This document shows, one piece after another, positions 1 to 34,021 of a DNA stretch of 64,000 nt; the stretch's first letter is position 1; each line of letters opens with the position of its first letter. A program made the translations under genes and the position numbers. Location of the stretch: the NCBI GenBank assembly GCA_039621445.1, contig CP154954.1:23014954-23078953 (forward strand). Reading direction: 5' to 3'. The notes beneath the pieces are model-generated. The model had not been told where the DNA came from, did not search any database, and saw only the letters and a list, made by a program, of their open reading frames with translations. Source of the DNA: Euglena gracilis (taxonomy: Eukaryota).

Positions 1-109
1 ATTGGGGGGCAGGCAACCCTCGGGTCCACACCACCACACTCCAACCAACCCAACGATTCATCTTCGGCGACGGGCAGCCGAACTGCCCTGAGCACCCCCC
101 CCCCTCATC
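1..109 (-). repeat. Polypurine tract (95-109) and start of a putative 3' LTR (begins TG at 94, runs off the window)
   Basis: Minus strand reads GATGAGGGGGGGGGG|TGCTCAGGG, the same purine-run-then-TG arrangement seen at the LTRs of B and D2; no partner LTR in the window. Confidence 0.5.
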
Positions 110-327
110 ACGAGTGACGGGCCGTCGAACCTCCCAGAGCATCCATCGACAATCAACAACCAACACCTGGAATTTTCAGTCATTCTTTCTGTGCCGACGC
201 AGGCCAACACGTGCACAATTGAAAGCATGATGATTTCCATCCTTTTCTGATCGGGGATCTTGGATACTGGCAAAGGAGGGGATTAGGCTGGGAGGGGGAG
301 GGCAGGCAACACTCGGTCTACACCGCC

Positions 328-1314
328 TCATTCCCACTTCTCCGTGAACCACTGGTACCGCTGTCGACGATACCTCCTCTTGCACGCCTCGGAGAGTCCA
401 CGTTCATCTCCACTTCTCCTGCGGGCTCGGGACGATGCTCCTTCATCTCCTGGGGGCATGTCCTTCAGGGTCTCTTCCTGGAATCTTCGGTACTGGAGCA
501 AGCACGCCCGGACTGGCCAACGCAATGGCCCAGTCGGCTGCATATGGCCCGCCTGCTGGTCCCAGATCTCGAAGAACCGGGTTCCTTCCTCGAAGATGAT
601 GAACTTCACTGTCATCTTCTGCAGCATTGGCCACCATGTTGTTGTACGCCACTCTGGTGCAATCAGCACCATCTCCTGCACCTGGTCCGCGATGATCTTG
701 AGGATAACTTGATTCATCAACGTCCACGGTGGGTTGGCCCATATCCTTTCTCTTGACCATGTCTTCGCAAATGCATTGTCTTCCTTCGTCCAGAACTTGG
801 GGAATCTTGCATTTTCCCATGATGCAAATGCTTCTTGCACACTTCCTTGCTGAATGTTGAACTTGTCCAGGATCAGGTCGATGAATTCCCAGCGCACGGC
901 GTACTCCTCGGAGATGTACTACCTTTTGATTCTTCTTCCCCTTCCACTTGGTCTTGGCAGGGTCTCTGGCTCTTCCACCTCGTAGTACTCCTCCTCTGCA
1001 GCTGGTCCTGATTCTGGATCTCCTGGATGTGGTTGATTCTCCATCACCACATTTCTCCTCCTGAATGGCTGCAATGGCACTTCCGGTTCTTCAGCTGCAC
1101 CTTCATAGTTTGGAGCTGGACTTCTTGATTCTTCTTCTTCTTCTTGTCCATCCCACACTGTCAATGCAGATCTCCAGCCCTCTTCTGGAAGTCGGACAAT
1201 CCATCTGCTCCAGCTCCAATCTGTCACTTCCTGCACTTTCAAGTGATCTTCTTCCGGCCTCCAACTGACATTCATCCTTCTGGGCTTGGCATTCTGGTAT
1301 TCTGACTCTGGCAT
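328..1314 (-). pseudogene. N6-adenine (Dam/DIRS-type) DNA methyltransferase with acidic N-terminal extension; one in-frame TAG at 919-921
   Basis: EEYAVRW..VQEAFASWENARFPKFWT..DNAFAKTWS..IWANPPW..KIIADQ..LIAPEW..WWPML matches the DxFAS..N / AF..W / NPP(F/W) / P.W..W pattern; ORFs 919..1314 and 328..897 share a frame. Confidence 0.85.
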
Positions 1315-2487
1315 TCTGGTCTTCTGGTAGTTTGGTTACTGAACACTTCCGTTTTCTGTGTGTCTCTTTGGGGTGTCTTTTCCCTTTTTCCCTTGATATT
1401 TGAATGCACAACACTTTGCCAGCTTGATAGGATGAAGTGTTCCGGCTTGGAACCACCTACAGAGAGGCAGTCCAATAAACTAAAATTAGGAAGTTCCGCA
1501 AAGCGGAAGATTCCGCTGTTGGTCTTTTTTTGGCCCCGCCCGGCGCCACACCCCAGGGGCCGCCGCCAACACTTCCTACCGAGGCGCCCGGCCTCGCCTG
1601 CCTTCGGCTAACCTCGGAGGCGGGAGCGGGGGGCGATGCGCACCTCATCGGCACAGTGAACGACAAACAAACGTCAGGGCGGTTCGGGTATACGGAGGGC
1701 AGGGGTGTGGCCTTGGCCTCGGCCTTGGCGTTTTGTGTTTGGTGCCCGGGGGCGTTTTGTGTTTGGCGCCCCTCGTGTGTCGCCTCGCGCGCCACAGGAG
1801 CCTGGTCGGGGGCTGGCGTTGGTCCCCGGGCGGTCTACTGGCAGGCCGGCCGCAGGCTCCTGTGGGCGCCTTGGGAGGGGGGTGGAACTCCTCCGGGCTC
1901 TGGGCGGGGGCCGCTGTCCTGCTGGGTGGCTTGGCAGCCGCGCCGCGCCGACCTGCAGGCTGGGTGCAGAGCCCGGAGCGTTGAGCCTTTCGGGGGGGCT
2001 GTGCGCTCCCCGGCTGGTTGTGGGGGGGGGGGCGGTCCCTTGGGCTCCCTTGGGTCTTTCTGGTGCCTGGGGGGTCTCTTCGGCTCGCCTGCTTTGCCCC
2101 CTGCCTGGCTTCCTTCGGCTGGCTGGGGGGGGGGTGCCTTTCTCTCCCTTGCGCCTGCTCGGTTCTCTTGTGGCGCTCTGGGGGGGGTGCTCCTTGCGCC
2201 CTCTTCGGTTCTCGTTTGGCGCTCTGGGGCTCCGGTGGGTGTGGGCGCTCCTGGGGGGGGGCGATTTTTTTTTTCGGGGGGGGGGCCGGGGGCGTTTTTT
2301 TTTTCGGGGAGGTCCGGGTGGCGTTTTTTTTTTGGTCCGGGGGGTGCCTGGCTCGGTGGCCCCTTGGGGCCTCCTGGGGGGGTCTTGGCTCGGTGGTCCT
2401 CTAGGTCCTCTCGGTGGCCCTCTGGGGGGCCCTGGCTTGGTGGCCCTCTGGGGCCTCTCGTCTTGCTGGTGCCGATGGGGGGGGGGC

Positions 2488-2660
2488 TTGCTTCGGTTCC
2501 CCCTGGGAGGGGCCTGGCTGGCTTCGGTTCCCCCTGGGGGGGGGGTTGGCTTCGGTTCCCCCTGGGGGGGCCTGGCTGACTTCGGTTCCCCCTGGGGGGG
2601 CCTGGCTGGCTTCGGTTCCCCCTGGGGGGGGGGTGGCTTTGGTTCCCCCTGGGGGGGGTG
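2488..2660 (+). repeat. ~29-bp tandem minisatellite (ggcttcggttccccctggggggggcctggct), ~6 copies
   Basis: Recurrent ttcggttccccctggg units. Confidence 0.85.
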
Positions 2661-3529
2661 TGCCCGGCTGCCCTGGCTGTCTGCCTCCCCCCGCTGGCTG
2701 GGGGGAGGGTGGCTGGCTGGTGGCCCCCTTGGGCCGCTGGCTTGTCTGTGTGGCCTCCGCCCCCCCGCTCTCTCCCGGCCGTTGTCTTCCCTTGGCCGGC
2801 TGGGGGGGTCTGCTCTGCCCCTGGCTGCCGCCCGCCTATGGCTTCCGGCCTTGGGCGCCAGCCTCCTCCTGCCTCCACAGTATCAGTGTCAGTGTGAAGG
2901 ACAGGAGCAGAGACATCCGCTGCCATGCGTCGGCTCGCCTCCGACGGTGTAGTCTCCACGTACCCAGCCTCCGCCAGCGTCTTGGTCCACGGCGCAGCAG
3001 GCACTCTGGCGAATCGGCAGGCAAGGAACGGCAGCAGCAGCAGCAGCCCCACAAATACAACCCCCGCTACCCAGTACGGTTTGACGCCAGGCTTTTCCAA
3101 CCACCCCCGGGGCGGTGGGCTGGCATGGGTAGCCGTGGGTAGGGGAAAATGGGAGGCCTCCGGGTTGGGGCCGGAAAGGGCCGGGACTCACAAGGCCTGC
3201 GTTGGGGGGATTGAGGACGCAGACACCGGCGGTGGTGCCCTCTCGCCGCCTTGAGGCTGGGGACAGGTCCTGGAGGTGCAACGGCAAGGAGCCATGGGTG
3301 GCGAAGGCTCCATCGGGACAGGGGATGAACGGGGCGCACTGGGTATGGGGGTGCGCTGGCAGGAAATGGTGTGAGAGGAACGGGGACGGCGTGGCACAGG
3401 CCGGCGGCAATGGGGGGGGGTGCCGGCCCGCACACACCGGGAAGGCCGCAGGCGGAGGGGGCACCGCGTCCCCGCCCACAGGCGGGAAATGGTTCGGAAT
3501 GGGCACATACGGAAAATGGGTGAACATCG

Positions 3530-3645
3530 CAGAGGCAGCCACTGCCGCCTGGGGGGCAGCCACAGCAGCCTGGTTGGCAGCCACCACCGTCGCCTGGGGG
3601 GCGGCCACAGCAGCCTGGGAGGCAGCCACAGCCGCCTGGGGGCCC
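3530..3645 (+). repeat. 21-bp tandem repeat (gcagccacagcagcctggggg), ~5 copies
   Basis: Direct reading. Confidence 0.75.
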
Positions 3646-4199
3646 CAGAGGGCCACCGAGCCAGGACCCCCCCCCCCGGAGGCCCAGAGGCCACCAACCA
3701 AGGCCGCCCCCCCCAGGCGGACCGGAGAGCACGACCAAAGACCGCCCACACACCAAGGCAGAAGACCCAAGGGGGACCCCCCGGGCAAAAAAAAAAACGC
3801 CCCCCCGGACCCCCCCGGACCAAAAAAAAAACGCCCCCGGACCCCCCGGGGCAGCGTGCGGCAGCAAATGAGCGAACGCAGACACGGGCTGCGCGCACTC
3901 AGCTCCTGTCGATGGACACACCAAGGTTGATACCGCAGCAGAGGGGATCTGGGGATCAGCCTCCTGCGACAGCTGGGGAAACGCAGAGACGGAGGGACGG
4001 TCGGACGGGTGGTGCACGAAGTGCAGGGGGACGGGCTGGTGCGATGCAGCGGCGGCGACGGTCCGCGGTGGATCCTGACCTAGCGCTGGCGGTGGATCGC
4101 GTGTCGGGACGTGCTGTGCTGCAGGCACCGCTGTGCCCACTGGGGGGTCCGCTGACTCCCCTTCCTGGCTGCTTGCGTCCTCGTCCTTCTTGATGTCCT

Positions 4200-5760
4200 C
4201 GTCGGGCCAGACCCACTCCTCGGGTGGGTCTTCCCACTCGGCGTTGTTGATGACCTCCTGCTCCTGCTTCTTCACCTCCGCGACGATGACCACCACCTCA
4301 GCCGGGTTGCGGTGGAGGTAGTCCAGCAGGTGCACCTTGAGCTTCTTGGACTTGGCGTACTCGATCATCTGGTGAGAGTAGCGATGGAAGAAATTTTTCA
4401 ACGGCTCCCACGTGAGAGTCGGGTGGCCCTCCCACTTCACCTCGAACTCCCAGTCGCCGTCGTCTCGTCTGCGGTGCCGCCGGATCTCCTCCACCGTCCA
4501 CTCCTCGATGTCCACGTCTTCTTGCGGTCTGGCCTGCCGGTAGACGAACATCTTGGGCGGGCCCCACAGCCGCGTGTCATCGCGGTAGGCCTTCAGCTGG
4601 CAGCGGCTGGCCTCTTGGCGGCGGCCCTCCTCCAGCTCCAGCTCGTACGAGTGCTCGCCACGGCGCGCGGTGACCCGGGCTGGGCCAAGCCAATAGCTCT
4701 CGAGCTTCTGGCCCGCCCGCCTCCGAGGCCGGAGGTACCAGACCAGGTCTCCCTTGGCGAACTCCTCGAGGTCCTTCCTGCTCCTGTTCTTCTGGTCCGC
4801 TTGCCGCTTGTGGAGGTCGTTGGGGACGTCGGCGACCTTCTGGTCCACGGCCTTCTGTCTCTCGAAGAACGACACGGCATCCTCCACCATGACCGGGGCC
4901 TTGTACGGTACGCCACCAGTCCACCGATGCCGTCCATACAGCACCTCGTATGGACTCAGGCCGTGCTGCGCCTTGGAGTCGTTCAGCTTCTGCACTGCCC
5001 TGGGCAGGGACTCCACCCAGGTGATCTGGGCCTCGGCCTTCTCGCTCCGGATCCGCTTCTGCAACTGCGCACCGAGGGATTCCGCCCGCCCGTTCGCCGC
5101 GTGGTGGTACGCCTGGGCGTAGGCGTGGCGGATCCCGTGCAGGCCGCACATGCTGCGCCACCACGCGCCAGCAAAATGCGGCCCGCGATCACTCGTGATC
5201 ACGCTGGGCAGCCCGTGCGGCGACCACCACTCCCGGTACATCGCCTTGGCCACGGTAGCGGCGGTGAGGCCGCGCGTGTGGTGGGCCGTGGCCACGACCC
5301 ACCCACTGTGGCGATCGACGCAGGCGGCGAACACGTTGTACAGCTGCCCCTCGAAGTCCACCTATGGCATCACGAAGAGGTCGATGGCCACCGACGCCAT
5401 GAAGTACGGCGGGACGGGCGTTGGGCAGACCTCCAGCCACAGCGGCTGGTGCGGGTGCTCGGTGGCCTGGCACACCGGGCACGTCCGCTGCAGCCCGCCG
5501 GCCACCTTCGCCGCCTCCATCCGGTCCGCAAAGACGTAGGTGCGCTCGGCCTCCTCCACCAGCCCGTCCCCGCCAATGTGGCCGGAGACCGAGTGCTGCT
5601 GCCTCAGCACCTCCGCCAGCGGCCCGCTCGGCACACACCACCTCCCCGCCGAGACGAGCCGCCCATCCACCAGCTGTAACCCGCTGGGCCAGCCTGGGCC
5701 GTTGTGGGCCTGGTCCCAGACGGGCTTCCAGCGAGGGCACACCGCATATGCCTTGCTCCA
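4200..5760 (-). pseudogene. pol: Element A integrase plus C-terminal chromodomain; TAG at 5362
   Basis: H-x4-H..CPVC Zn motif, VAIDLF, ITSDRGPHF, NGRAE, WLGP; chromodomain EEWTVEEIRRHR..FEVKWEG..TWEPLKNF (~4390-4505). Confidence 0.9.
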
Positions 5761-6315
5761 GTCCATGTCGAAGACGTTGATGGACAGGTCAGGCTGCGGG
5801 GGCACGGGATCAGCGGTTGACGGCACACCTGCTGCGGGCGCTGCAGACGGGACTAACGCGGCCGGTGACGGCACACCGGCTGCGGACGCTGGGACGGGCA
5901 TGGCCGGTGATGACACACCGGCTGTGGGCACTGCGGGCGGTGCGATGGACTGCGGTGCGGTGGACTGTGGTGCTGGTGATGGGGCTGGCGATGGCGCGTT
6001 GGACGATGGTGCTGGCACGGACGCTGGTGATGCGGTGCACGACGCAGACGGCAGGACTGCCGCAGACGATGCCGACGGTGGGACTGCTGCGGCCGCAGGA
6101 GACCAGGCTGACGGGTGCATCTCGCGTGGGTGCTCGGACCGCGTACCGTGCGGGGCGTCTGCTGGGGCGTCTCGGGCGTTGCGCTGCGTGTCGAGGCGGC
6201 TGCGCATGGTGACGGCGATGTGGGACGCTGACGGGACCGTGGCGAACGACTGGAGCGGGAACAGCTGGATGAAGGCCAGCTCTCTCCCCTCCTTCAGGGT
6301 TGACCTCTCCACCTG

Positions 6316-8676
6316 TTACGCCTTGGTCTCCTCGTCCTCGGGATGCACCGCCTTCGGGGTGGACTTCTCGCGCAGCTTGTCCTCCAGGATGTGGGCCTTC
6401 ATCTCCTTCGTGTCGGCCTCGGTGCCGTGCCACGAGGTGTCGCGCCAGCCTTGTGAGGCCGGGTAGGCCCAGCGGGACATGGCATCGCCCACCACGTTGG
6501 TCTCGCCGAGGACGTGCACCACGGTGATGCGGAACTCGTTGAGCTTCACATGCCATCTGGCCCGCCTCCCCTGCGGGCCCACTCCGGCGACGTACTCCTT
6601 GTACCACGACTCCAGGCTGCGGTGGTCGGTCAGGACGAGGATCTCGTTGTCCAGCAGGAAGCCCGCCCACTTGTCGAGGGCGGCCACCACGGCATACGTC
6701 TCCTTGTCCCGGACATCCCACCGAAGGCGCTGCCCCTCGGTGAGCTTCTGGGACATGAAAGCCACCGGGACGGAGGCCCCCGGCCGCAGGTCCTCCACCC
6801 GCGGCACGCCGTCGATGTTCAGGAACTGCTCCAGCACCGCTCCGATGGCGTAGTCCGACGCATCGGTGCGCAGGACGAACGGCTTGGCTGGATCGATGTG
6901 GTACAGCTCCAGGTCGGCGACGAGGGCCTTCTTCGGCTTGTCGAACGCTTCCTTCTCCTGCTACGTCCACACCACTGGGTGCTTGGATCCCGCCTTGGTC
7001 AGCTCCCTCGGCAACTTCAGCTTCTCCTGCAACGGCGCCGCCAGCTCTGCGTACAGTCTCACATAGCCTGCATAGTAATTGCAGACGCCGAGAAACGCGC
7101 GGAGACTGCTGACCGTCGGCGGCAGTTGCCAGTGCTGCACCGCCGACAGTTTGCCTGGGGCAGGCGCCCTCCTGCCGTGCCCCAGGACATGCCCCACGAA
7201 CTCGACCTGCCTCATGAAGAGCTTGACCTTACGGCTGTCGCTGACCCATCTGTCCCTCTCCAAGGCCAGCAACGTCTCACGGACGTCTCGGGCGTGCTTC
7301 TGGTAGAACTCCTCGTCCGTCTCCTCCGCTCCCTGCCGCGTACTGACGATGATGTCGTCGAAGTACGGGCGGGAGTGCGCCTTCACCGCCGCGCAGGTGG
7401 CGTCGATGTCCCGCTGTAGGAGGGCGGGCCCGACGTTGATCCCCTGCGGGACCACACGCCACTGCCACAGCCCACCCGGCAGCTGGACGTTCGTCACCGG
7501 TCGGCTCTCCTCCGCCAAGGCCACCTGGTGGAACGCGTCCAGCAGGTCGATGGTGCTGAAGAGGGTACACGTCGCCTGCTCCGCCACGATCTCCTCCGTC
7601 AAGGGCAAGGGGTAGCTGTCCGCCATGATCTGCAGGTTCGTCACCGCGTAGTCACACACCATCCTCCACTTCCCGTTCTTCTTCCGAATCGGGAAGGCCG
7701 CCGCCCGCCACTGGCCTCTGCCCGGCTCCACCTTCCGGTCGCGGCGGCACTCCTCCTCCATCTCCCGCAGCGCCTCCAGCCGTTTGCCCTTCAAGTGGAT
7801 CAGATTCCCCACCACCGGCTGGGCGTTTGGCTTGAGGCGCAGCACCGCCATCCCGTGCTGGCCTCGGGGCGGCGGATCGGGGTGGACGCGGTCGCAGAAG
7901 ACGCGGCGCGGCCCTCGAACTCCTTGAGCATCTCGGCGCGCAGCTGGACGGCCAGCGGAATGCTGCTCCTCCGCCTCGGCCGTGAGCACCCCACGGACTT
8001 CCTTCGCCTCCTTGGCTGCGTCTATCAGCACCTTGGCCACCATTGCCTCTTCCTCGGCGTCCAGGGCCTCGTACTCCTCGTCTCCGTCGGGGCCATTGAC
8101 CCCGACGGTGAGCCTCATCTTCCTCACCTCGGCCTCCATCTCCTCCACCACTTCGGACGGCGTGCGGGGCAACGGCGACGGGCTGCGGGCTCGGACGGTC
8201 GCGTGGGTGCGTGTGCTTAGCGCTGCGATCTCGCTTGCTTCGGTGCCAGCGATGACCCATCGGGGGTCGTCGTGGAGCTGGAGCGCATCCCGCCAGGGTT
8301 GCATATCCAGCCTGTGCTCCTTCAGCCAGGGGTAACCCAGAATCAGGTCACACCCTATATCACCGTCACGGACGGTGATCTGGCTGTGCCCCCTCTTCAC
8401 TCCTCCACTCCTCTCTCCTTCGCTCCTCGCGTTGAACGCCAGGAGGACGTCCGCCTCATTGCTGCCGCCCGCCAGCAGGTCGCCGTTCACGGTGCGCTGC
8501 AGCAGCGGTCGCTCGCTGCGACGGAAACATCCGTTCGGGAACAAGTCTTGACGGATCAGCGACGTCTGCGCCCCCGTGTCGATGAGGGCCTTCGCCTTCT
8601 CCTCCCGGCCGTCGATCTCGATGACCACGTCCAGCATCAGCTGATAGCTGCCTCCCCGCCTCTCCATGCGGCCCAC
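6316..8676 (-). pseudogene. pol: Element A aspartic protease, reverse transcriptase and RNase H; TAG at 6961, TAA at 6316
   Basis: ALIDTGA; WRMVCDY, YPLP, IDLLDAFHQV, VPQG, YFDD, FVGH; TDASDYAIGAVL, FMSQKL, TDHRSL, GDAMSR. Confidence 0.93.
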
Positions 8677-8730
8677 CTGGAAGGACCGGCTGGGGCGGTA
8701 TTGCCACGGACAGACGGTGACCTTGTGGAC

Positions 8731-9924
8731 TTACCGCGGGGGGTGGGGCTCGTCGGCGGCGGTGGTGACGGGCTCGGCGGGTGGATCGTTGTGTGGCTCG
8801 GCGGGGGCGCACGATGATTGGCGGGTGCACGATGGCGGTCGTTGGCGCGGGGCTTGGGACAGCGCCGCTGCTTGCGGGGGCAGCGCCGTCCGGCTTGGCG
8901 GTGCGGTTGTGGACGCGGGTGCGGGTGCCGGCGACGGCGGTATCGCGCTGGGCGGCACGGCTGCTTGGCGGGTTGGTGGGGTGCGCTCGCACAGGTATCG
9001 GACTACACCTTTGGGAATGTGATACGCCTGCTCTCGGGTGCCGCGCTGCTGGAATGCCCCACCCACCTGCCATCGATGATGTCGTCGTCCATCTTGCTCC
9101 TCCACGATGTTCTCGCACTGGCCGTCGCACACGATGTCCTGCATGGGGGCCATGGAGTCCGCGCTCCAGAAGCGTGTGGGCTTGCGATAACCCCACGCCT
9201 CGAACATGCAGTAGTCCACATCGACGTACTGCATGTCGTCCACGACCTTGCGGTGGCGGAGTTTCCCATAGCGGGGATTCTCCAGCCACCACAGGGACGG
9301 CCGCAGGTAGGCGATGATCTCCTTCGTCTTGAGGACCAGGAAGTCGGCCTTCCGCAGCCGCCGCCTCCTGGTCGTCATCGCGCTGGAGTACTCGGTGCAC
9401 GGCGGTGAGGCGGCGACCAACTCGAAGTCGCCGGGCCAGTACTCCTCCCAGTACCGCCAGCGCCGCACGTCCACTGTCTGGTCCGCCTTCCACCGCGGGT
9501 CGGCGTCCACCGAGACGACGGAGTAGCCGAGCTTCTCCAGCGCCCGCTTCACCGACCACGTTCCGGAGAGCAGGTACAGTGCACACCTCTTTGGTGTCGA
9601 GGTTGTCGGTGACGCTGCGGCCGACTTCAGTGCCGCCCGGGAGGACGGTGCGCTCTGCGGGGGGAACGGGGCGCTGGTTGCTGCGGGTGCGGAGCGTGGT
9701 GCCGCTGACAGCGCTGCTGATGGTGGGGGCAGCGTCGTCCGGCTTGGTGCTTTCTGGCGCGGTGCCCGCTCCTGCTGCTGCCGGGCTGGGGGCGTCGCGG
9801 TGACACGATGCTGCGTAGACGATGGCACGGACGCTGCTGGCTTGGCGGGGGGCGAGGACTGCGCAGACGAGACGGGTCGCGCAGCAGACGGTTGCTCGGA
9901 ACGACGGGACTTCTTCTGTAACAC
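8731..9924 (-). pseudogene. Element A C5-cytosine DNA methyltransferase (domain ~8985-9590), in frame with protease through one TAA
   Basis: Degenerate motif I LYLLSGTWS, motif IV ASPPC, motif VI WLENP, VDYCMF..GYRKPTRFW; 54 nt in-frame gap to ORF 6961..8676. Confidence 0.88.
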
Positions 9925-10129
9925 GGACCAGTAGTTCTTTGTCGAAATCTGATGCGCCCCGCCTTGGCCGTGTGCTTCAGGGCACGGTCTCTCCCCTCCT
10001 TGGGAGATTTGGGGCTTGCTGGGTCTGGGGGGGGGTGCGGGGCTCTTGGGTGATTGCCCGCACGCTCACGCTGGCGTTGGGATTTGACGGCCGGCCCAGA
10101 CCCCCATCCCTGGGGCCTGGGCGGCCCGG

Positions 10130-11736
10130 TCACTCACAATACTGCTCCTGGACGGCCGAGACGTTGCTCTTGCGGTCCTTGCCTTTGCCCTCGGACTTTC
10201 CTTTTCCTTGATCTCCTTTGGCTCCACCTATCGCCTTGCCTTTTCCTTTGCCTTCATCTTGTCTGGGGGCATTCGATGTCCACTGCTCGCCTTGGTACCC
10301 ACCACCTTTTCCTTTTCCTGCATTCCCTTGCCATGCACTCGATGACCACTACTCGGCTTGGTATCCACCCTTTCCTTTTCCTTCTTCACTCGTCCATGGG
10401 CTCGATGACCACTGCTCCGGGTACCCACGTCCCCCTTGGCCTTGTCCCTTGCCTTGGGGCGTGGGCACCGGCGGCGTCGGCGGACGTGGTTGCTGCGCTT
10501 GCTTCTCCTTCTTCGGCGGCACGTTCGTCTTCTCCAACTCCTGGATGTACGGCTCCTCGGTCGTGTCGTCGACCTCCACGTCCCGCTGCCACCGTGGTAC
10601 CGGCCGCTTCTCCGGGATCTCCTTCTCCTTCTTGGGGGCCATCTTCGCCTCCATCCGCAGCCATCTCACCATGAGGTTGTGGATGTCCTTCGCCGGTGGG
10701 TCGCACGAGTCGGCCGTCACCGTGACGATGCTGCTGCCCTCGAGCCGCTGGCGGTCGTACACGGCCTTCACCAGGGTGCGGTGCTCGTCGACCACTGGCA
10801 ACACCACGAAGCCCGCCCCGCCTTCCGCACTGAGGCGGGAGCTACCGTGGTCTCTGGCCTAATCATCTCCTTCACCTCCTCCACCGTCGTGTCCATCGGC
10901 AGGCCCTCCAGCACGATGGACCGGTGGTCCACCCGCTTGTCCTCCTCCTGCGCCACCTTCCGGCGCCAGGGGTGGAGGGGTATGGCCTCCACGAGGAGCT
11001 TCCCCAGCTCCTCCTCCTCCATGCCCACCTGCCTCGCCATGGACGCCATCTGCGCGTAGTACTCCCTCCAGGACTTGTCGGTCAGCTTCCCGCTCGTCAC
11101 CAGCTTCAGCTACCTCATTCGTCGCCGTAGAACCTCCTCGTCCTCGCCGCCGTACGCCAGGTCCACCTCCGCGAACAGCACGGCATACTCCACCTCTCCT
11201 TTGGTCTCGATCTCCTCGTCCAGCACCAGCACCGTAGCCTCGTCCAAAGCCACGCGGAACATGGCGAGACGCTGGGCTGACGTGATGGAAGGCCACGCCT
11301 GCTCGAGTCCCCGAAGGAACAGGAGCCAACGCCTCCGCCACTGCGGCCGGTCCTCCGGATTCCCGGTGAACCGGCCCGGGCGGAGGCCGATGACGGAGTC
11401 CACCAGCGGCGCCGGGAGGAAGTGCAGGGCCGCTGGCTGGGCCTGCACCGGGGCGATGCGGACCTCTCGCACCGCGGACGCGCTGGCGACGGGGACGGCG
11501 GACGGCGTGGTCAGGCGGGCGATGGAGAGGGACGGCACCCCGCCCCCTCCCTCCACGGGCTGCTTCCGGACCAGTCGGAGAGCTGGTCGGAGGGTGGACG
11601 ACGACTTCTCCTGCACCACGGACTCCTCCTGCATGGGCTTCTCCATCTGGACCGTTCTCACCTCTGGCACTGATTGCTGCCGGTCCACCGGCACCGGCTG
11701 CTGCTCGGCTGGGGGTGGCGGAGCCTTGGCGGGCAC
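10130..11736 (-). pseudogene. gag: Element A gag (5' truncated; stops and a frameshift), KG-rich C-terminus ending TGA at 10130-10132
   Basis: PGRFTGNPEDRPQWRRRW gag-like motif; similarity to B gag (SGKLT vs EGKIT); position upstream of pol. Confidence 0.65.
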
Positions 11737-12821
11737 GTCGACTAGGCGGTCATATCCGCACTAGGAAACAAAAGCCTACTTACAGAACCGACTGCCGACG
11801 ACATCTTTGCGGGGGTGGGGAGAAAGTAGAGAGGAGAGGGGGACTGGCTTAGGCCAAAACAGAATTTTTGATGTCTGGCAGCCTTAAGGGCCCTTATTGG
11901 CCGAAAAGTGACAAGAAGGCCAATTATTACGGCGTGCGCGCTGTGTGCTGTGTGTCACTTAGCGGCTTTCCAGGTTTGCCGGCTGCCAAGGTTGTGCGCG
12001 GTCCGAGGGTGCCCGCCCCAAGGGAGGGTCCCAAGGTGGCCCAAAGGGGCCACGAAGGGCCGCGAGGGGGCACCAAGTCCCCCAAGGGCCTTTTGAGGAC
12101 CCACTGGCCCCCATGGGGGCCCCACATCCCATTTTGACCATGCCAAGGGAAGGTAAAGGAGAGGGGAGGTGGAGGGACCCAACAGGCAACACCCAAGGGG
12201 ATGTGCAAGCCCCTCTGGGGTTTGAGCAAGCGTGTGCACCCCCTTGGAGGGCGCTGGGATGGTGCAATTCATTAAGAATTGCGCAAAGTATACCAAGTAG
12301 CCCCTCCAGCTGTAGCCCCCCTCCAATTGTACATTTTCTGCGCAGGGCTCTGTTCACACTCTGTCATTTTTGTTCACCAATTGTGTTGCATTGCAAGTGC
12401 AATTCAAAGTTCAAATCAAGGAAAGTACAAATTACAAATTTCACGTTCAAGTCTCATTGCTCAAGTATTCAAGTTCATTTGTTGAAGCAAAAGTATGTCT
12501 TTTACCCATTCTTCAACATCTCCATCTACACCAACACCCACCCCTACCCCACTGTTTCACCAAGGTGAAAACCCCCACCAGGTGGGCCCGACGGGCTCAA
12601 ATTTTAACGATCCTACGCGGGTTGCGCCACCAGGGGTCCCTTCACAGGGACCTCAGGAGAGGCAACCCTTACAAGGTCTTCACAGCAACAGCTCCTTCAC
12701 GACGTAATAAGAGGCGCTTACCTCTTGCCTACCCAGTAGTTTTCCTTTGATGGTCTGGAAGGATGTTCTTTCTTATTCACCGAAAAATACAGGCTTCAGG
12801 CTTCCTTTCTTCCCACGTCCC

Positions 12822-15800
12822 CTATTCCTCTTCAGTATTCTCATTCGGTCTGCTGTCAATTCTGCGTACCCTTGGCTGTATGAGGCTTAGTAGGTTGTGA
12901 ATCCCAGGAATGCCTGCCAGTAATCTGAGTTCAGGGCATCTTCCACAGGCGACCAACTGGAATTGTGGTGGTGGTGGCCTGTCCACCAGCCAGGTTTCTG
13001 GCGATGCGTAGTCGAAGTAAGTTGCCACCCAGTCCCGAACCCACCCTTTGGGGACTGCCTGCTTGGTTATGCTCGCTCTTTCCGCGAGGAACCACTGCAG
13101 CGTCTCCCAGAATTTTCTGGGCAGAGTGGCTGGCCAGATGAAGTAGTTCATCCGAGGGAGATTGGCTGACTCCTGCGGGACATTCCCCGGGTGGAAGTCA
13201 ATTGGCATGTGATACGCACACTCCGCGCGGACTGTATGGGGTCATAATACGTCCCCAAGCCAGTATTTCCAGGTCTACCCGTGGTTTTCGGGTGGCCATT
13301 GTGGTAGGCACCAGCGACCATTTCGGTCCTTGGTTGTGAATAGGAGGAAAAATCTTTTCCCTGTCCGCTCTCTCCCAGAGGTAAGGTAATCTCACCTCTG
13401 CCTCCTCGGCAGCGAGGCGTATCGCCCCACTGTCGATCAGCCTCCCACGGGCCATTCCCGTGTGGCGGTAGTCGTGGAGCTTGAGGTTGGAGTACTTTGA
13501 AAAAGTCCTTGTACTTTTTGTGCGAGGTGGAGAATTCCTCCAGTGGCTTCTGGCCGCTTGGCACGATTGTGCGAACTGCGCCTTCCGCAGGTTCTCAGAA
13601 GGTACCTCGAAGGCAGTTGACGCAGAGCAGTGGCGGATTCGTACCATCTCGCTCCGTGTAGTGGAAAGTGTGCTTGTGTGTCCAACTGTCCACACACTTG
13701 GTGCATACGAAGTCGATGATAACTTCGTCTTCCGAAGGTGTCTCAGGTGTTGAGGCACGGGATTTTCCCTGCCCTTTTGACTGAGGTGTCGGCTGTGAGG
13801 TTTTCCCATAGCCGGATGACGCGACGTGCATCCTTGTCCCGATGTTAATCCCCGAGAAGAGGATGCAGCACCCTGGCCGCCAGCACCACCATTGCCTTTC
13901 GGGGGGGGCTGATCACCAGATTTCGGTGTGGGCTTGCAAGCGGCGGCACCCGGCTTTCCTTTTTCCCGGGCCTTCGGACTTCCGGTTTCTGTAGTGTCCA
14001 ATGGCCGCCGTTCGGCGTCGCGCTTGCTCGCCCAGGTGCGTGGTGACGCTTGGGACGGGATTCTTCTCCACGAAACCGAACGTTGTTGTCCTTCAGCAGG
14101 GGTTTCCCGAGCTGAGGGTCGACCTACACGCTCATTCGCGGTACCCGTGGGTTTCCCAGGGGCAGCTGTGGGGGATGCTGTTGGTTCAGGCGTTGCCGGC
14201 GCGCTTCGCGCTGGTTGAGCCTGTGGTGGAGAAATGTACGTCCACTCAGCCTGTTTTTCAGGTGCCGGTGTACGTGTGCCTTGACGCTTCGGAGGAGTGA
14301 TTGTGGCTGTGCCCTGAGGAGCGTGTTCATCCCGTGCCTGGGGTGGCGCTACCGGCGCTGATACAGGTTCATCCTGCACTGGCACGGTTGGTGTTGTCTT
14401 CACTGCCAATGCTGTCTGTTCGCCTTCCGTCCGTGTCGCTTCCGACACCGGCGGTGGCGCTGCCGATGGGGGAGGTTCATCCTCCACCAAGGGTGCAGGA
14501 TCAGGTGTTTCTTCCGCCGGCTGGGCAGTTTTCGCCGCAGCTGTGGAAGAACTGACCGCAGTGCCACGTGGAGTGACAACTGCGATCAGTGACCGCAAAA
14601 CACCGAATACGCGTCCGCCCAGCAAGGTGCGCCGCTCAGGTCCTTCACCTGAAGTGGGATCCTCCGCTGGCTCCTCTGTCGACGGGATTTCCCTGGAAAC
14701 AGGGAGCTTGAGGAGAAATACCTCAGGCGTGTGGGGTACTGTCTCCCGCGGGTTTTCCCGCGGAGGGGCCGGTACGCTTGTCGTACTCAGTGAGGTTGGT
14801 GTCTGTGGTACAGGTGTAATTTCACCTGCCGGCGATCCTGGGCGCTGGGCACTTTCTGCCACAGTGTCCAGCATCACGACAGATGGGTTACGGGTTTCCC
14901 GTGCCAGAGGTTCCGCTGACTGAGGTTCACCATCGGCCGTTGGGACCGCTTCCTCCTCCTCCTCCGCTTCCGGAGGGGATTCCTCTCTGTGCAGATGTGC
15001 TGCAGAACGCGTGTCATTTCCGCTCCTGTAGCACCCTCGTGCACATAACAGGCGATAGAAGGTTATACTTTCACTCCTGTCAGAGTTGGGGTATGGGGGC
15101 GGCCATGACGCTCTTACCCAGCTTCCGGGTTGATGTTCTGGCTCGTCCTCGCTGATCATGCAGAGGTCTTCCCACTGCATTCGACGGTTGCAGCTCATGC
15201 CGTATTGTCCTGTGTATTCCTGGAAGGCGGGCAGCGGCAAAACATAGCGTGGTTGTTTTTCTACGTTTGCCGCATCGAAGGCTTCGAAGTCTTCCCAGAC
15301 CAGGATATTCCCGAACTTGGTGTCCATGTGCTCCTGGAGACAAATTTCGGCCTCCTGCAAGTCCGGCCGCAGGTTCATCCTGCGTCGGTCTGGATCATTG
15401 TGTCTGGCGTCCACCTCGGTGTATCCCCGGGGTAGCCACTTCCTATTGATATCCAAAGCAGTGATCATGAATTCCAGGAAAAAAATGTAAACCTCCAGGA
15501 CGTAGGTAATAAACGCCCTGTGCCAGTATCGTTGCAGCGAAAATATTTTCTGCCGGTTCAGTTTTAGCACCTTTCGGTCTTGCGCTCCGCTCTGAGGATT
15601 CCGGCACTGTTGCAGGAGAAACCTCCTGGTCCTCTGGCTGCGGGCATTCTCGGCAGTCGGAGGCGGTTTTCCACGTTCTCCGAAACCCCAGAAGTCAACA
15701 ATGTACTTCTTTGCAAAACTGGCATTCCAGTTTGTACCGTCGGAGGTACGCGAGGTTGACGTCCAGCACCTTGAACAGAGTGCCACATGCTGTCCAAGTA

Positions 15801-17270
15801 GATTTGCAGATTGCATGTGAACATTACCGCGGCCTGCGCCTGGAGTTTCTACGGCAGGGGGTAATATTTCCACTGGATTCCCAGTGCTCCGACGGAATAC
15901 ATGTGGTTGAAGACTTCCTTCAACTGTGCTACGAAAGTTTCGTCGTCCGGACATATTCCCAAACAGTCAATATACGTCTGACCGTTTCGGCCGTTAAAGA
16001 TTCCAAAGTTCTGGCAGGGGTATCCCAACCAGAACCACAGCTCCCAGAAACCCGACATCCGGTCCAAGACGACTTCATCCGCATGAGGGTATCCCTCAAA
16101 CGCATGAAGTTCGGAACTGTAGAAAGATCTTTTTCAGTGATCGTATGTACGATTCTGCACCACTTCGAGCACCGCATCAAGTGGTCGGTGGATCACTTCC
16201 TTGCGCGTGTGTACTTCTGGAGATCCTCGTCGATTTTAGACAGGATCTCCTGAAGGTAGTTGAACACCAGGGAAACGTCGTAATCCTTCGTTTTCGAAGT
16301 TTCGGCGGCTTTCCCGCCTTTTCCTGCTGGGGGTCCGGCAGATTTTCCGCCTTTGCCTGGAGCTGGCCAAGCGGCCTTTCCGCCTTTGCCAGGTGGGGCT
16401 TTCCCACCTTTCTCTGGCCTTTTCCTTTTCCCTTACCCTTGCCCTTTCATTTGAGCGCTGTGGGTACTGTCAGACGTGGCGGAAGGGTTTCCTTCCGCGT
16501 GGCGTCTTGGCATATGGTCAGGTATGGCAGGGTGGGGTTGAGGTGGATACACGTACTGATCTCGTGGCACTGGTGCCTCCTGGGGATAATCCCCAGAGAC
16601 GGTGTACTGAGCCACATGCTCCTGCGCGGGATAATCCCGCCGGGGCATGCGCTCAGGGGATCGAAAAAAACTTTCTTTCACGCGTAGTCCGGTCACTCCG
16701 GACAGGTGCTTCCCCTGTCTCTTCCTCGGGTATTCTGGGGAGTGAGCACGGAAATGCACGGTGTAAGTGCCAACTGACGGTACCTGCGGTGCTACCTGTG
16801 GTGGGACTTCCAAGCCCAGTTCACGCATGGTAATGTCCGCCGCGACTCCCGATGTGTCCGAGTCGGTGTAATACGCCGAACCGGTCATCATCGCCTGGGC
16901 GCTCATACACCACAGGGCTGGAGGGGTATTCGCGATTGTCAGTGTCTGACGGCAGTGGTCATCACACAACACCTGGGTGAGGTGGTCTGGTGCCGGGTTT
17001 GCGCTCATACGAATAACACGGTTCATCGTCTCCGCCGTGCAATGGAGCATCACACCCGCATACGGTGGGAGGCTATGATGGCCTGATGGCTGAGATGACC
17101 ACGCTTCCGCGGGCATCTGTGTCAACCTGGTACTGCTGCTGGCTTCAGGGTTTCCCTGGTGCAGGTGGCTGCGTACCGTATTGGTACGCATATTGGTCAG
17201 GTTGACGGTGAGTGGTGGGGTGGTAAGGCGGCCCTCCGCCTGGCTCACTTACACCGGGCAGCATGATACC
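12822..17270 (-). pseudogene. Large unknown 3' accessory ORF of the D family, fragmented (16433..17248, 15849..16407, 13198..15954, 12822..13208)
   Basis: Same strand as pol; conserved in copy D2; alternating globular W/C-rich and P/A/T/KG-rich blocks; no recognisable family. Confidence 0.6.
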
Positions 17271-17419
17271 GCCCGGGGGCGGTACGGTAGAATGGTTGGG
17301 TTGTTGGTTGTCAGTTGGTAAGGGTAACCGCTTGAGTATTGTCTGGCAAAAATACTTCTGCGGAAAGAAAGAATGATAAGAATCAATTGAAAAATGAAAA
17401 GAAAACAACATGGGTTTCC

Positions 17420-21838: not shown

Positions 21839-22673
21839 GAACCAGTGAGAGCCAACACCCCCCCCCCTGGATGTCATTTCTCCCAGTTTCTGTTCCAAAA
21901 AAAGGGTTTTGGGGTGAAAATTGGCCTGTGGTTGCCTGAGTTGAGGAGTCCCACCCCCCTGCCCCTTTTCCCACAGGTGAGGTGGGGGGAAGACAAACCT
22001 CACCTTCTTCAATTGAGCTTTCTTGATTGATTTGTTGTCCTTCCATTTGCAATTCCAATTGTAAATCCAAGTTCAATGATTGAATGTAATTGGTTGTAGT
22101 TGACACAACAAATGCAATGGTGAAACAAGTGAAGAGGAAAACCCTGTGAAAGAAATATTATTTTGATGCCCCTGATGGGCAGTTAAATTTAGGACTGAGT
22201 GCGCTGATTCCTAAGCGCTGTCAAATCCCAAATCCTAGCCCATTGCATCAAAATCAACCAACCCAAGTCAAAATCAAGGTTTCCTCCCTTGATTTTGATA
22301 AATTATTCTGAATTCCATCATTATTGAGCTTTTCAAACCCCTGCAAAAACTCCAGGAACTCAGGCGCCAATCTCTTAAAATTCTGTTCCAAGCGCTTGCA
22401 AGCGCTCTCACCAAATCCAACATTTTTCCTTAAAACCAAAGGAAAAATGCGTAAAAAGCTTAACATTATGCTAAATAGACCCAAAATCACCCTTTGGGAG
22501 TACCTAGCATCACTCAACCTCTCTCCTTGCACAACCAAACCATGGGCGCCCTAGGAGAGGGAATTTTAATGGAAACCTTTAGAAAGCCTTAAAATTAGAG
22601 CTAAACCACCCTTAAAAAGGCCTTCTAAAAAGGAAAACTCCGCCGCCCGGCGGTCGACCTCAAAAGGTCGTCA
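21839..22673 (-). repeat. Element B 3' LTR, proximal part; PPT at ~22674-22684
   Basis: Direct repeat of 34311-35141; minus strand AACGGGGGGAG|TGACGACC. Confidence 0.9.
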
Positions 22674-23034
22674 CTCCCCCCGTTGCGACGAAAGTCGGGG
22701 GTTTCACCCCCCCTCCTTCTCGCTTTCCTTGGGATGGGGATGAAAGACACTTTGAATTTTTGCAACGCAATTGCCGCAACATTGTTCGGCAACGTGCATA
22801 GGTGGTGGCGTCACGGTGAGGAGGAATCTATAACCCATAGATCCCGTTCCACCACACCGAGCCCCCCCCCCCCCCACGGTTCTCACCACCGTGAAAGGAA
22901 ATGGGGCCTAACACCACTCAAAAAATATCCTTTCTTGAATGGATAAAAATCAGCCCCCCCCACGGTATTCCTAACCGTGAAGGGAATGGAGGGTCCATTA
23001 TCACCAAAAATCCTTTCGGTGATAGATGAAAATC

Positions 23035-23250
23035 AGCTCCCCCCCCGAGGGGAAGTCCTTTGGGAAAAGCTTCCCCCCCCGGCGAGAGGTGGGCTTGACT
23101 TGCCCCCCCCCCGAGGGGAAGGACTTGGGTAAAAGATTGCCCCCCCCCCGGGGAAGAGGTGGGCTTGACTTGACCCCCCCCCGAGGGGAAAGCCTTGGTC
23201 AAATCCCCCCCCGGGCAAAGGGAGGGCTTGGCTTGCCCCCCCCGGGAGGT
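23035..23250 (+). repeat. ~65-70-bp tandem repeat x3 in B 3' UTR
   Basis: Units cccccccgaggggaa..gaggtgggcttgacttg. Confidence 0.75.
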
Positions 23251-23706
23251 TGGAAAAGGCAAATCACTTCATTTTTGGGAAATAATAACATAGCCCCCCC
23301 CCCCCCCAACCGATCAAGCCCACCGGGGTTTCGGGCCTCACTTGCGCAAAGGTGGGGGGGTACGATAAAAATAGCCAATCAAACCGATTGGAGAAAGTGA
23401 CCCCCCACCTCGAGTGCTACCGACCCGTGAGAGGGGAGAAATAAAAAATCACAGATTCCTCTTTCATGACTGTGGGCGCAACGGGGCACAGTGTCGTTCG
23501 AGTGTTGTCAGGTTACACCTTCGGCCTGTCCATCGCTCGTGGAAGCTTGATATTTCAGACTTCGAATAATACTTGAGAATCCGTCTTCAACTCGTCCAAC
23601 TCAGAGTCCCGGCTCCAGGTTCCGTCCTGAGTAAGTACGAGGAGGCAGGAGGCAGGCAGTTGTATATACATCCCATTCCCCATATTTCCAATGCCATGCA
23701 AAGATA

Positions 23707-24750: not shown

Positions 24751-25077
24751 GAAAAATAGCGTCCCAAGCTTCCGAAAATCCTTCGGTTGCTTGAACCCCA
24801 TCCAAACCCGGACAGGGTTGATGGATGAGTTCTGGAAATAAAAACTCAAAAATGACGAAGAAGCACTGCCCTCATCATTTGTCTGAAGTGCCTTTTACAG
24901 TTCTGGGGTGACCTCCTCCTCCTCCGAGGGTGCCGCCTCCTCCTCTGTGGGGTTTTCCGTTGGCACGTCCACCTGCATCTGTGAAGGGGCACGGAGTGGG
25001 ACCTCCCCCTCCCCAGGCAACCACTCCAGGCCCTTTTTCACCTCCCTTTCCCCCTTTTTTCAGGTTGCCGTTGTTTT

Positions 25078-30213: not shown

Positions 30214-30267
30214 AAAATCATGTACAGCCCAGTTTTTTGAATCAGAAATATTTACACCGTTTTCCTC

Positions 30268-33960: not shown

Positions 33961-34021
33961 TGGCTGATAATCAAAGAAAACATTCTGAGCAGGGATTTCC
34001 AACCCAAAATTTCTGACAGAA

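What the first reader, a model, noticed from the sequence alone, without database searches (positions are those of the whole stretch)
95..9924. Element A may encode both a 5mC and a 6mA writer
Seen: on A's strand, downstream of its chromodomain and an acceptor-like site (3973), after a repeat block, lies the NPPW MTase, then ~220 nt later a PPT and TG. Inference: the N6-MTase is A's 3' (env-position) ORF, giving one retrotransposon two MTase classes. Caveat: 328-1500 is visibly less GC-rich than A's core and is separated from it by 2.3 kb of repeats, so it could belong to a different element.
Basis: inference. Interest (0 to 1): 0.8.

Follow-up and report, generated by a model that had tools for sequence, protein, structure and literature searches.

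The report
Methylase retrotransposon beside separate adenine-methylase gene
A broken copy of a jumping gene that carries a cytosine DNA-methylase lies just upstream of a separate adenine-methylase gene, but it is unproven that the two belong to one element, and jumping genes carrying both enzymes were already described in a 2026 preprint.

Summary
Element A (minus strand, 11739 to about 2890) is a Ty3/gypsy chromovirus copy cut short at its 5' end. It has a C5-DNA-methyltransferase domain ahead of PR-RT-RH-IN-chromodomain and at least four in-frame stops. Downstream on the same strand lies a self-contained Dam-like ORF (1314-328) with NPPW and one in-frame stop. It ends 223 nt before a run of ten G followed by TG at 94, and other copies confirm 94 as a repeat boundary.

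Whether the Dam ORF belongs to A stays open, and the evidence leans against it.
- GC3 is 0.44-0.67 in the Dam ORF against 0.77-0.92 in A.
- CpG is depleted in the Dam module but not in A.
- 0 of 6 A-like polyproteins and the intact sister element B carry a Dam domain.
- A has no LTR pair in the window, and its 5' junction is itself a break between two cut-off elements.
- The closest Dam relatives are all Dam-only proteins on contigs of at most 1.9 kb.

The concept itself is real and already in print. Public polyproteins P0118, P0158 and P0159 combine Dam with A-type DNMT, and a May 2026 bioRxiv preprint names such elements EpiLTRs. At most, this would be a new variant with a separate 3' Dam ORF.

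The parts
10349..11739 (-). Element A, gag-like region. It is cut off at 11739/11740, where it abuts repeat R. It holds an in-frame stop at 11110-11112 and a frame change near 10768-10858.
   Evidence: ORFs and stops. No Pfam hit. The R|A junction differs from the usual continuation of R.
8941..9618 (-). Element A, C5 cytosine DNA-methyltransferase domain with SPPC and ENP motifs. Motif I reads SGTWS where relatives have SGTGS.
   Evidence: Pfam PF00145 E 0.042 only. 41% identity, E 2e-50, to P0118. 40-56% identity to 11 public polyproteins. Model pLDDT 86.5, Foldseek top hits DNMT3A/3B/DNMT1 at E 4e-8. Motif comparison from the alignment.
8323..8622 (-). Element A, aspartic protease (weak match).
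   Evidence: Pfam RVP and gag-asp_proteas E about 0.005, below cut-off. Homologous to B's pol by tblastn.
7186..7689 (-). Element A, reverse transcriptase.
   Evidence: Pfam RVT_1 E 1e-20.
6532..6957 (-). Element A, RNase H.
   Evidence: Pfam RT_RNaseH E 6.4e-24.
5104..5331 (-). Element A, integrase core. The zinc-finger part lies upstream in ORF 6315-5362.
   Evidence: Pfam rve E 5.1e-10. tblastn to B's integrase.
4357..4500 (-). Element A, chromodomain.
   Evidence: Pfam Chromo E 7.3e-5, 23.1 bits against a 25.1 cut-off. B's homologous region also hits Chromo.
2890..4200 (-). Element A, G+C-rich low-complexity tail after pol. It is shared with another A-family copy.
   Evidence: P0162 is 94% identical and colinear with window 8031-3847 and 3527-2892. 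Related pols P0163 and P0166 end soon after the WEDPPxEW motif, which corresponds to about 4200.
1530..2889 (-). C/A-rich (sense strand) tandem-repeat block of unknown ownership, between A's shown extent and the Dam module.
   Evidence: No copy outside the window was shown to bridge it.
328..1314 (-). Dam-like N6-adenine methyltransferase ORF. It has its own ATG at 1314-1312, an acidic N-terminal part, FAS and NPPW (735-724) motifs, a basic tail, an in-frame TAG at 921-919 and a stop TGA at 330-328.
   Evidence: Pfam PF05869 E 6.6e-11. Alignment with 13 relatives that start with Met and end at the same place. Model pLDDT 89.3.
95..104 (-). Run of ten G, which looks like a polypurine tract.
   Evidence: Sequence. 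Element B has GGGGGGAG directly before its 3' LTR.
1..94 (-). Start of a terminal repeat (TGCTCAGG...), which runs off the window.
   Evidence: In other copies 94 or 98 is joined to 164, 161 or 678 of the Dam module (tables 5 and 5c). No partner copy exists in the window.

Best explanation
Two retroelement pieces lie head to tail on the minus strand.

(1) Element A is a dead copy of a very high-copy Ty3/gypsy chromovirus family, cut short at its 5' end. Its polyprotein reads DNMT-PR-RT-RH-IN-chromodomain.

(2) The 1.4-kb Dam module (about 1530-95) is the last internal part of an LTR-type element. It holds a 5' leader, a self-contained Dam-only ORF, 223 nt of trailer, a G run, and then a terminal repeat starting TG at 94.

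Most likely the Dam module comes from a different, lower-G+C element lineage that abuts A's tail in this mosaic of cut-off elements. At best it is a recent recombinant. It is probably not an old, integral ORF of the A family.

Function is inferred, not shown. The DNMT would put 5mC on the element's cDNA or on integrated copies. The Dam-like enzyme would methylate adenine N6 on a nucleic acid made during retrotransposition. The preprint's model is 6mA on reverse-transcription intermediates, which then draws in the host's AMT1. In this copy both ORFs are interrupted by stops, so neither is made here.
For: Composition:
- GC3 is 0.77-0.92 in all seven A ORF segments, against 0.67 (Dam domain) and 0.44 (Dam N-terminal part). 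B and the other elements give 0.42-0.60.
- CpG o/e is 0.9-1.0 across A's core, against 0.22-0.69 in 1-1500.

No Dam in A's kin:
- 0 of 6 A-like polyproteins (44-97% identity in IN-chromo) hit the Dam profile at E<=10.
- Element B has a 96%-identical LTR pair and an A-type DNMT, and shows no Dam.

The locus is a mosaic:
- A's 5' end is a junction of two cut-off elements. The other R copy and one X16 contig continue differently beyond that point.

The Dam ORF stands alone:
- Relatives start with Met and stop at the same place.
- In a quick tree of 54 Dam domains it falls in a 24-row clade (SH-aLRT 91) of proteins of 170-509 aa. The 16 of these that I scanned have no other Pfam domain.
- 18 of 18 looked-up relatives lie on contigs of 535-1851 nt.

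The module is tied to the terminal repeat:
- Three joint variants link 94 or 98 to Dam-module positions in two DNA runs.

The module is high-copy:
- 36-38 contigs per run carry the family's letter at position 756 (table 3).
- Summed depth is 66-112k over the Dam bins against 158-307k over A's core (table 2). The tool warns that this figure is not a copy number.
Against: - Same strand, direct adjacency, and no other element's coding sequence in between.
- The Dam ORF sits exactly in the env position before a PPT-like run.
- A's family does extend at least to 2892, and the block from 2889 to 1530 has A-like G+C.
- B also has 2.4 kb of partly similar low-complexity sequence between pol and its PPT, so a long 3' region is normal for this group.
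- Relatives of A's DNMT lineage do carry Dam domains: P0118, P0158 and P0159, that is 2 of 7 long DNMT-bearing proteins plus P0118.
- In the quick tree, the nearest TE-linked Dam to the Dam-only clade is P0118, a Dam-PR-DNMT protein.
- The preprint stresses frequent module exchange between retroelements, so a recent capture with foreign composition is plausible.
- No copy was seen in which the Dam module follows something other than A's tail. The one exception is a single metatranscriptome contig that diverges at 1729 (table 7).
Confidence: 0.5

Rival explanations
1. The Dam ORF is the A family's own 3' (env-position) ORF. A-type elements would then be dual-methylase chromoviruses (an EpiLTR variant) in which Dam is translated from its own ORF, perhaps from a spliced or trans-spliced RNA.
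For: - Same strand and contiguous, with a PPT-like G run and a TG boundary after the ORF.
- A's family is colinear down to at least 2892.
- DNMT-lineage relatives P0118, P0158 and P0159 combine Dam and DNMT in one polyprotein.
- P0118's Dam is the nearest TE-linked relative of the Dam-only clade.
- Gypsy elements with Dam after the integrase exist: L001 and L003.
- EpiLTRs are described in bioRxiv 10.64898/2026.05.21.726589.
Against: - GC3 and CpG content do not match A's.
- 0 of 6 A-like pols and element B carry Dam.
- In known dual elements Dam lies inside pol, not in a separate ORF.
- There is no LTR pair here.
- Depth is lower over the Dam bins.
- A's other end is demonstrably a non-native junction.
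Confidence: 0.3
2. The Dam ORF is a remnant of a DIRS-type (tyrosine-recombinase) retroelement, the class in which Dam-like domains were first known.
For: - Some relatives have RT-RH-Dam in one ORF: P0082, P0121, P0146, P0149, L004 and L012.
- L006 has a weak Phage_int_SAM_1 ORF upstream.
- A 42-nt direct repeat (337-297 and 45-4, 81% alike) recalls split terminal repeats.
Against: - There is no RT or RH upstream in frame. Instead there is a conserved Met-initiated N-terminal part shared with Dam-only relatives.
- No tyrosine recombinase appears among the 150 ORFs of at least 110 aa scanned outside 1500-11800 at E<=1e-4, nor among A's ORFs.
- In the tree the ORF lies far from the RT-RH-Dam rows.
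Confidence: 0.07
3. The Dam ORF is a host (domesticated) gene, or a retrocopy of one, that merely lies next to A.
For: - It is a self-contained ORF with leader and trailer. The module size (about 1.4 kb) matches the 0.5-1.9 kb contigs of its relatives.
- It is CpG-depleted like older resident DNA.
Against: - It is very high-copy in two DNA runs, with dozens of distinct contigs per site.
- It has an in-frame stop.
- It is followed by a G run and a repeat boundary, not a poly(A) tail.
- The preprint infers that orphan DAM-only sequences derive from transposable elements.
Confidence: 0.08

Closest known systems
EpiLTRs: LTR retrotransposons with chromodomain, DAM and DNMT (Fernandez-Moreno et al., bioRxiv 10.64898/2026.05.21.726589, May 2026; I read the abstract, Results and Discussion)
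   Same: A Ty3/gypsy chromovirus backbone, a DNMT module and a Dam-like module in close association. Public proteins P0158 and P0159 (Dam-PR-DNMT-RT-RH-IN) and P0118 show the dual set with a DNMT 41-44% identical to A's.
   Different: In A the DNMT lies ahead of the protease and there is no Dam inside pol. The Dam here is a separate ORF 2.9 kb past the last region shown to be A's, with foreign composition. That they form a single unit is not shown. I could not see the domain order of the preprint's Euglena elements, because figures and supplements are not held.
DAM-LTRs (same preprint)
   Same: Dam-like domains in non-DIRS LTR elements. Metagenome loci L001 and L003 carry Dam fused after the integrase SH3 domain of a gypsy pol. 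P0023, P0125 and P0091 carry Dam between PR and RT. The window also holds a Dam fragment just upstream of an RT at 55097-55324.
   Different: Those Dam domains are part of the polyprotein. The one at 1314-328 has its own start and stop, and belongs to a clade of Dam-only proteins.
Orphan DAM-only sequences (46.1% of eukaryotic DAM proteins in the same preprint)
   Same: Dam domain with no TE domain in the same ORF. The authors take them to be TE-derived.
   Different: Here the Dam-only form looks like a conserved ORF design (Met start, acidic N-terminal part, basic tail) rather than a random fragment.
DIRS-group retrotransposons with a methyltransferase domain (as cited in de Mendoza et al. 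2018, PMC5890265; I read passages only)
   Same: The same Dam-like family, PF05869.
   Different: No RT-RH fusion, and no tyrosine recombinase found in the window.
DNMT-bearing retrotransposons: KnitGypsy-Dnmt3, SymbioDIRS-Dnmt3, SymbioLINE-Dnmt (PMC5890265; passages read)
   Same: A C5-DNMT inside a retrotransposon polyprotein.
   Different: According to the preprint, the EpiLTR DNMT is sister to DNMT4, not DNMT3. I did not place A's DNMT in a DNMT tree.

Membership tests
Ty3/gypsy chromovirus | pol order PR-RT-RH-IN | tested here: met
   Pfam RVT_1, RT_RNaseH and rve in that order in one frame. The protease match is weak.
Ty3/gypsy chromovirus | chromodomain at the C-terminus of the integrase | tested here: met
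   Pfam Chromo E 7.3e-5, slightly below the gathering score. Homologous to B's chromodomain region.
Ty3/gypsy chromovirus | pair of long terminal repeats with target-site duplication | tested here: not met
   There is no second copy of 1-94 or 1-330 in the window. A's 5' end is a break against repeat R. This may reflect truncation of this copy rather than the family.
EpiLTR (chromodomain + DAM + DNMT in one LTR element) | C5-DNMT domain encoded by the element | tested here: met
   The catalytic PC and ENP motifs are present. Motif I is altered in this copy.
EpiLTR (chromodomain + DAM + DNMT in one LTR element) | Dam-like domain with the NPP[YFW] motif | tested here: met
   PF05869 E 6.6e-11, NPPW present.
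EpiLTR (chromodomain + DAM + DNMT in one LTR element) | all three modules within a single retrotransposon unit | tested here: inconclusive
   They are colinear on one strand, but there is no LTR pair, no bridging copy, and the composition does not match.
DIRS-type retrotransposon | tyrosine recombinase | tested here: not met
   No Phage_integrase hit in the 150 ORFs scanned at E<=1e-4 or in A's ORFs. Divergent recombinases, or one lying off the window, would be missed.
DIRS-type retrotransposon | Dam-like domain fused after RT-RH in one ORF | tested here: not met
   Upstream in frame lies a Met-initiated N-terminal part shared with Dam-only relatives, not an RNase H.
DNA N6-adenine methyltransferase (functional 6mA writer) | methylates adenine in DNA | not testable with these tools
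   The motifs and a Rossmann-type fold are present. The nearest solved folds are RNA adenosine N6-methyltransferases (PCIF1, KsgA/Dim1, Erm) at E 9e-5 and weaker. The preprint reports no 6mA gain when eukaryotic DAMs were expressed in dam-deficient E. coli.

The most novel reading that the evidence does not exclude
The A family would be a third, independently built dual-methylase chromovirus. Its DNMT lies inside pol, ahead of the protease. A recently captured Dam sits as a separately translated env-position ORF, expressed from its own spliced or trans-spliced RNA. The Dam-only clade (24 rows in the tree) would then be a hitherto unrecognised accessory-ORF class of LTR elements rather than debris. 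Its fold likeness to cap and rRNA adenosine methyltransferases leaves open that it marks the element's RNA or an RNA:DNA hybrid rather than duplex DNA.
Probability: 0.3. Interest if true: 0.55.

Novelty: new member of a known kind. Interest (0 to 1): 0.35.

Why it matters
Retrotransposons that carry their own writers of 5mC and 6mA bear on how mobile DNA manipulates host chromatin. That such dual elements exist is now in a preprint, so this window adds at most a new architecture: Dam as a free-standing 3' ORF next to a DNMT-chromovirus. It also adds a caution, since in TE mosaics adjacency alone can create apparent chimeras. The consistent Dam-only ORF design and its RNA-methylase-like fold are the parts most worth following up.

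Tried and rejected
- Whole-genome search: no genome is held for this window.
- LTR pair: a 24-mer search and BLAST of 1-330 and 1-1700 found no partner in the window.
- Repeat R (11740-13466, inverted copy at 19058-20784) as A's LTR: rejected. R continues differently elsewhere, and no R copy lies 3' of A.
- Small LTR element carrying only Dam, with a 5' LTR in 1530-3100: rejected, because no match to 1-94 lies there.
- Altered genetic code (TAA/TAG read as sense): considered because every internal stop in A and in the Dam ORF is TAA or TAG. Rejected. Other copies and P0162 read sense codons at the stops that could be checked. B's pol ends at TAA just after the chromodomain. ORF-length gains under other stop sets are unremarkable for G+C-rich DNA.
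- Viral-contig scans: the Dam profile gave nine distant loci that I did not follow up, and A's DNMT gave none.
- Metagenome-contig scan: it returned only distant Dam relatives (at most 34% identity), not the contigs of the close ones.
- Word-based search with the Dam ORF found only P0001.
- Matching contig lengths between Dam-only proteins and DNMT/pol proteins, to infer shared contigs: no match.
- PDB by sequence: no hit for the DNMT ORF or the Dam profile. A profile that included PR-RT rows returned only reverse transcriptases.
- Read laying cover: RNA-labelled run X16 gave no cover on 1-2802, and X15 almost none on 1869-2802 or 1-467.
- The careful tree search did not finish, so only the quick tree is reported.


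Full report
**What is in the window**

On the minus strand, one reading frame from 10065 to 3067 is interrupted only by in-frame stops, at 8731, 6961, 6316 and 5362. In order, it encodes:
- a C5-methyltransferase-like domain (9618-8941)
- a weak aspartic protease match
- RT (Pfam E 1e-20)
- RNase H (6.4e-24)
- integrase core (5.1e-10)
- a chromodomain (4500-4357, E 7.3e-5, just under Pfam's cut-off)

Pfam barely sees the methyltransferase (PF00145, E 0.042). Three other results place it.
- It is 41% identical (E 2e-50) to the DNMT part of public protein P0118, which hits PF00145 at 8.8e-7.
- It is 40-56% identical to 11 public retroelement polyproteins.
- Its AlphaFold model, built from a 13-row alignment (pLDDT 86.5), matches DNMT3A/3B/DNMT1 by Foldseek at E about 4e-8.

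A second element in the window, B (35141-21839), has the same layout. Its DNMT is 44% identical to A's, and its 838-nt LTR pair is 96% identical.

**The Dam-like ORF**

ORF 918-328 hits Pfam PF05869 (Dam) at E 6.6e-11 and carries NPPW. The frame is open upstream to 1335, apart from one TAG at 921-919.

An exhaustive HMMER search found 1669 relatives at E<=1e-3. Aligning the closest ones shows a shared design:
- a Met start, here at 1314
- an acidic N-terminal part
- SEEYAV, FAS and NPP[WFY] motifs
- a basic tail ending where the window's ORF ends

This is therefore a self-contained ORF of 328 codons with one premature stop. It is not a fragment of a polyprotein.

The model (pLDDT 89.3) is a Rossmann-type methyltransferase. 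Its nearest solved folds are adenosine-N6 methyltransferases that act on RNA: PCIF1 at E 9e-5, then KsgA/Dim1 and Erm. No DNA Dam appears among the 50 rows shown. Sequence search finds no solved relative.

**The 3' signals**

The stop at 330-328 is followed, after 223 nt, by ten G (104-95) and TG at 94-93. Element B shows the same grammar, GGGGGGAG directly before its 3' LTR.

I laid contigs of two DNA runs on 1-14000. Other copies join 94 or 98 to positions 161, 164 or 678 of the Dam module, with about 22 other letters in between (tables 5 and 5c). So 94 is a real repeat boundary, and the repeat to its left travels with the Dam module.

**Is the Dam ORF part of A? Direct tests failed.**
- No whole genome is held.
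- The 24-mer at 94-71 is unique in the window, and BLAST of 1-330 finds no partner.
- A has no 5' LTR here. At 11739/11740 its gag-like region abuts repeat R (11740-13466). R recurs inverted at 19058-20784 with 96.7% identity. Both that copy and a contig of run X16 continue with a different sequence beyond the junction. So this junction joins two cut-off elements.
- The laid contigs are at most a few hundred bases long and cannot bridge 2.9 kb.
- What can be shown is that A's family runs on through the low-complexity tail. P0162, from a 5.2-kb public contig, is 94% identical and colinear with 8031-3847 and 3527-2892.

**Indirect evidence against A owning the Dam ORF**
- GC3 is 0.77-0.92 in all seven A ORF segments. 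It is 0.67 in the Dam domain and 0.44 in its N-terminal part. B and the other elements give 0.42-0.60.
- CpG o/e is about 0.9-1.0 across A's core, but 0.22-0.69 in 1-1500.
- None of six A-like polyproteins (44-97% identical in IN-chromo) hits a Dam profile at E<=10. B has no Dam either.
- Summed contig depth is 66-112k over the Dam bins against 158-307k over A's core. The tool warns that this figure is not a copy number.
- One metatranscriptome contig follows the Dam module up to 1729 and then diverges from the window (table 7). This is a single record from another sample and is weak evidence.

**Indirect evidence for A owning the Dam ORF**
- Same strand, no other coding sequence in between, and the exact env position.
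- B also has 2.4 kb between pol and its PPT, with partly similar low-complexity sequence.
- Among seven long proteins that carry an A-type DNMT, two (P0158, P0159) begin with a Dam domain in the order Dam-PR-DNMT-RT-RH-IN. The partial protein P0118 reads Dam-PR-DNMT.
- Gypsy pols with Dam fused after the integrase exist in metagenome loci L001 and L003.
- I built a quick maximum-likelihood tree of 54 Dam domains. I chose the rows: the window ORF, 37 short relatives, 12 long ones and 4 loci. None was dropped. The window ORF sits in a 24-row clade (SH-aLRT 91) made only of proteins of 170-509 aa, and the 16 of these that I scanned have no other Pfam domain. The nearest TE-linked row is P0118. 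P0158 and P0159 fall in the other main clade, with RT-RH-Dam and IN-Dam forms. The careful search did not finish, and the root is a midpoint.
- 18 of 18 Dam-only relatives looked up lie on contigs of 535-1851 nt. That fits either short transcripts or repeats that break assemblies.

**Weighing**

I put about 0.5 on juxtaposition of A's tail with the 3' end of another, lower-G+C LTR-type element, or at best a very recent recombinant. The other readings get:
- 0.3 for the Dam ORF as a true 3' ORF of the A family
- under 0.1 for a DIRS remnant
- under 0.1 for a host gene or retrocopy

The DIRS reading fails on the features that could be tested. There is no RT-RH upstream in frame. No tyrosine recombinase appears among 150 further ORFs scanned at E<=1e-4. 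The host-gene reading fails on copy number: dozens of distinct contigs per site in two runs.

**State of this copy**

The stops at 6961, 6316 and 5362 are read as sense codons by P0162. At 6961 and 6316, and at a gag-frame stop at 10349, all laid contigs also differ from the window (table 3). The stops are therefore private to this copy, and the genetic code is standard. Motif I of the DNMT also departs from its relatives. Neither enzyme can be made from this copy.

**Comparison with what is known**

De Mendoza et al. 2018 (PMC5890265; I read passages only) described DNMTs in DIRS, LINE and Gypsy elements. They noted Dam-like enzymes only in DIRS.

A May 2026 preprint (bioRxiv 10.64898/2026.05.21.726589; I read the abstract, Results and Discussion) reports the following:
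- 10,030 eukaryotic DAM proteins
- DAM-LTRs
- 46.1% orphan DAM-only sequences
- 'EpiLTRs', which combine chromodomain, DAM and DNMT, in Cymbomonas tetramitiformis and Euglena gracilis
- nested insertions and chimeras flagged as a risk in Euglena
- no 6mA gain when eukaryotic DAMs were expressed in dam-deficient E. coli

Its figures and supplements were not available to me. They may already hold this family and its domain order. I did not identify the window's organism.

**Verdict**

The concept is no longer new. What remains of interest is the conserved Dam-only ORF design at the 3' end of an LTR-type unit, and its unexpected likeness in fold to RNA adenosine methyltransferases.

Noticed in passing
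window 21839-35141 (minus strand): Element B is a complete-looking 13.3-kb chromovirus. It has an 838-nt LTR pair (96% identical), an A-type DNMT (30051-29527), an uninterrupted 1384-aa PR-RT-RH-IN-chromo ORF, about 4 kb of unassigned ORFs upstream, and a 2.4-kb 3' region with a zinc-knuckle ORF. It has no Dam.
   Followed up: partly
window 11740-13600 and 18984-20784: A repeat of at least 1.73 kb occurs in inverted orientation (96.7% identical) with an 85-nt indel near one end. It is the 3' part of another integrase-bearing element (SH3_Tf2-1 at 17958-17443, then a 922-aa ORF with no Pfam hit). A further copy of that element's 13927-17356 lies at 35142-38429, next to B.
   Followed up: partly
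window 55097-63230 (plus strand): Four tandem units of 1972 bp each hold an RT-RNase H segment. They are preceded by a short Dam-like fragment (55097-55324, profile E 1.3e-7) about 180 codons upstream of the first RT. This is a Dam-then-RT layout like P0031 and P0096. Tandem RT-RH units are odd for a retroelement.
   Followed up: partly
window 41048-41152 (minus strand): A third, very weak Dam-like fragment (profile E 0.004) lies just upstream of a degenerate RNase H at 40786-39932.
   Followed up: no
window 2257-2455 and 3641-3838: A 200-nt inverted repeat (71% alike) of G-run/T-run units lies inside the low-complexity block. Six to seven contigs per DNA run, and also P0162, lack about 208 nt at 3640-3847, so the right arm is an indel polymorphism among A copies.
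   Followed up: partly
window 297-337 and 4-45 (minus strand): A 42-nt direct repeat (81% alike) starts 7 nt before the Dam stop codon and recurs 292 nt downstream, inside the putative terminal repeat. The second copy runs off the window, so its true length is unknown.
   Followed up: no
window 11987-12671: A 685-bp segment with GT..AG ends is absent from some contigs of both DNA runs and from one contig of run X16. This is a presence/absence variant within repeat R, not shown to be an intron (table 5).
   Followed up: no
Dam ORF model (window 918-328): The nearest solved folds are RNA adenosine-N6 methyltransferases (PCIF1/CAPAM, KsgA/Dim1, Erm) rather than DNA Dam enzymes. Together with the preprint's negative E. 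coli assay, this leaves the substrate open.
   Followed up: partly
P0118 (NCBI EPS62093.1): A Dam-PR-DNMT polyprotein fragment is filed as a hypothetical protein of the carnivorous plant Genlisea aurea, on a 2.5-kb contig. Given its relatives, it may come from another organism in the sample. This is inference only.
   Followed up: no
window 1-14000 in runs X1 and X2: The whole stretch is extremely repetitive in the source organism. About 32,000-34,500 contigs per run were laid at 85% likeness or more, so the host genome is packed with these families.
   Followed up: no
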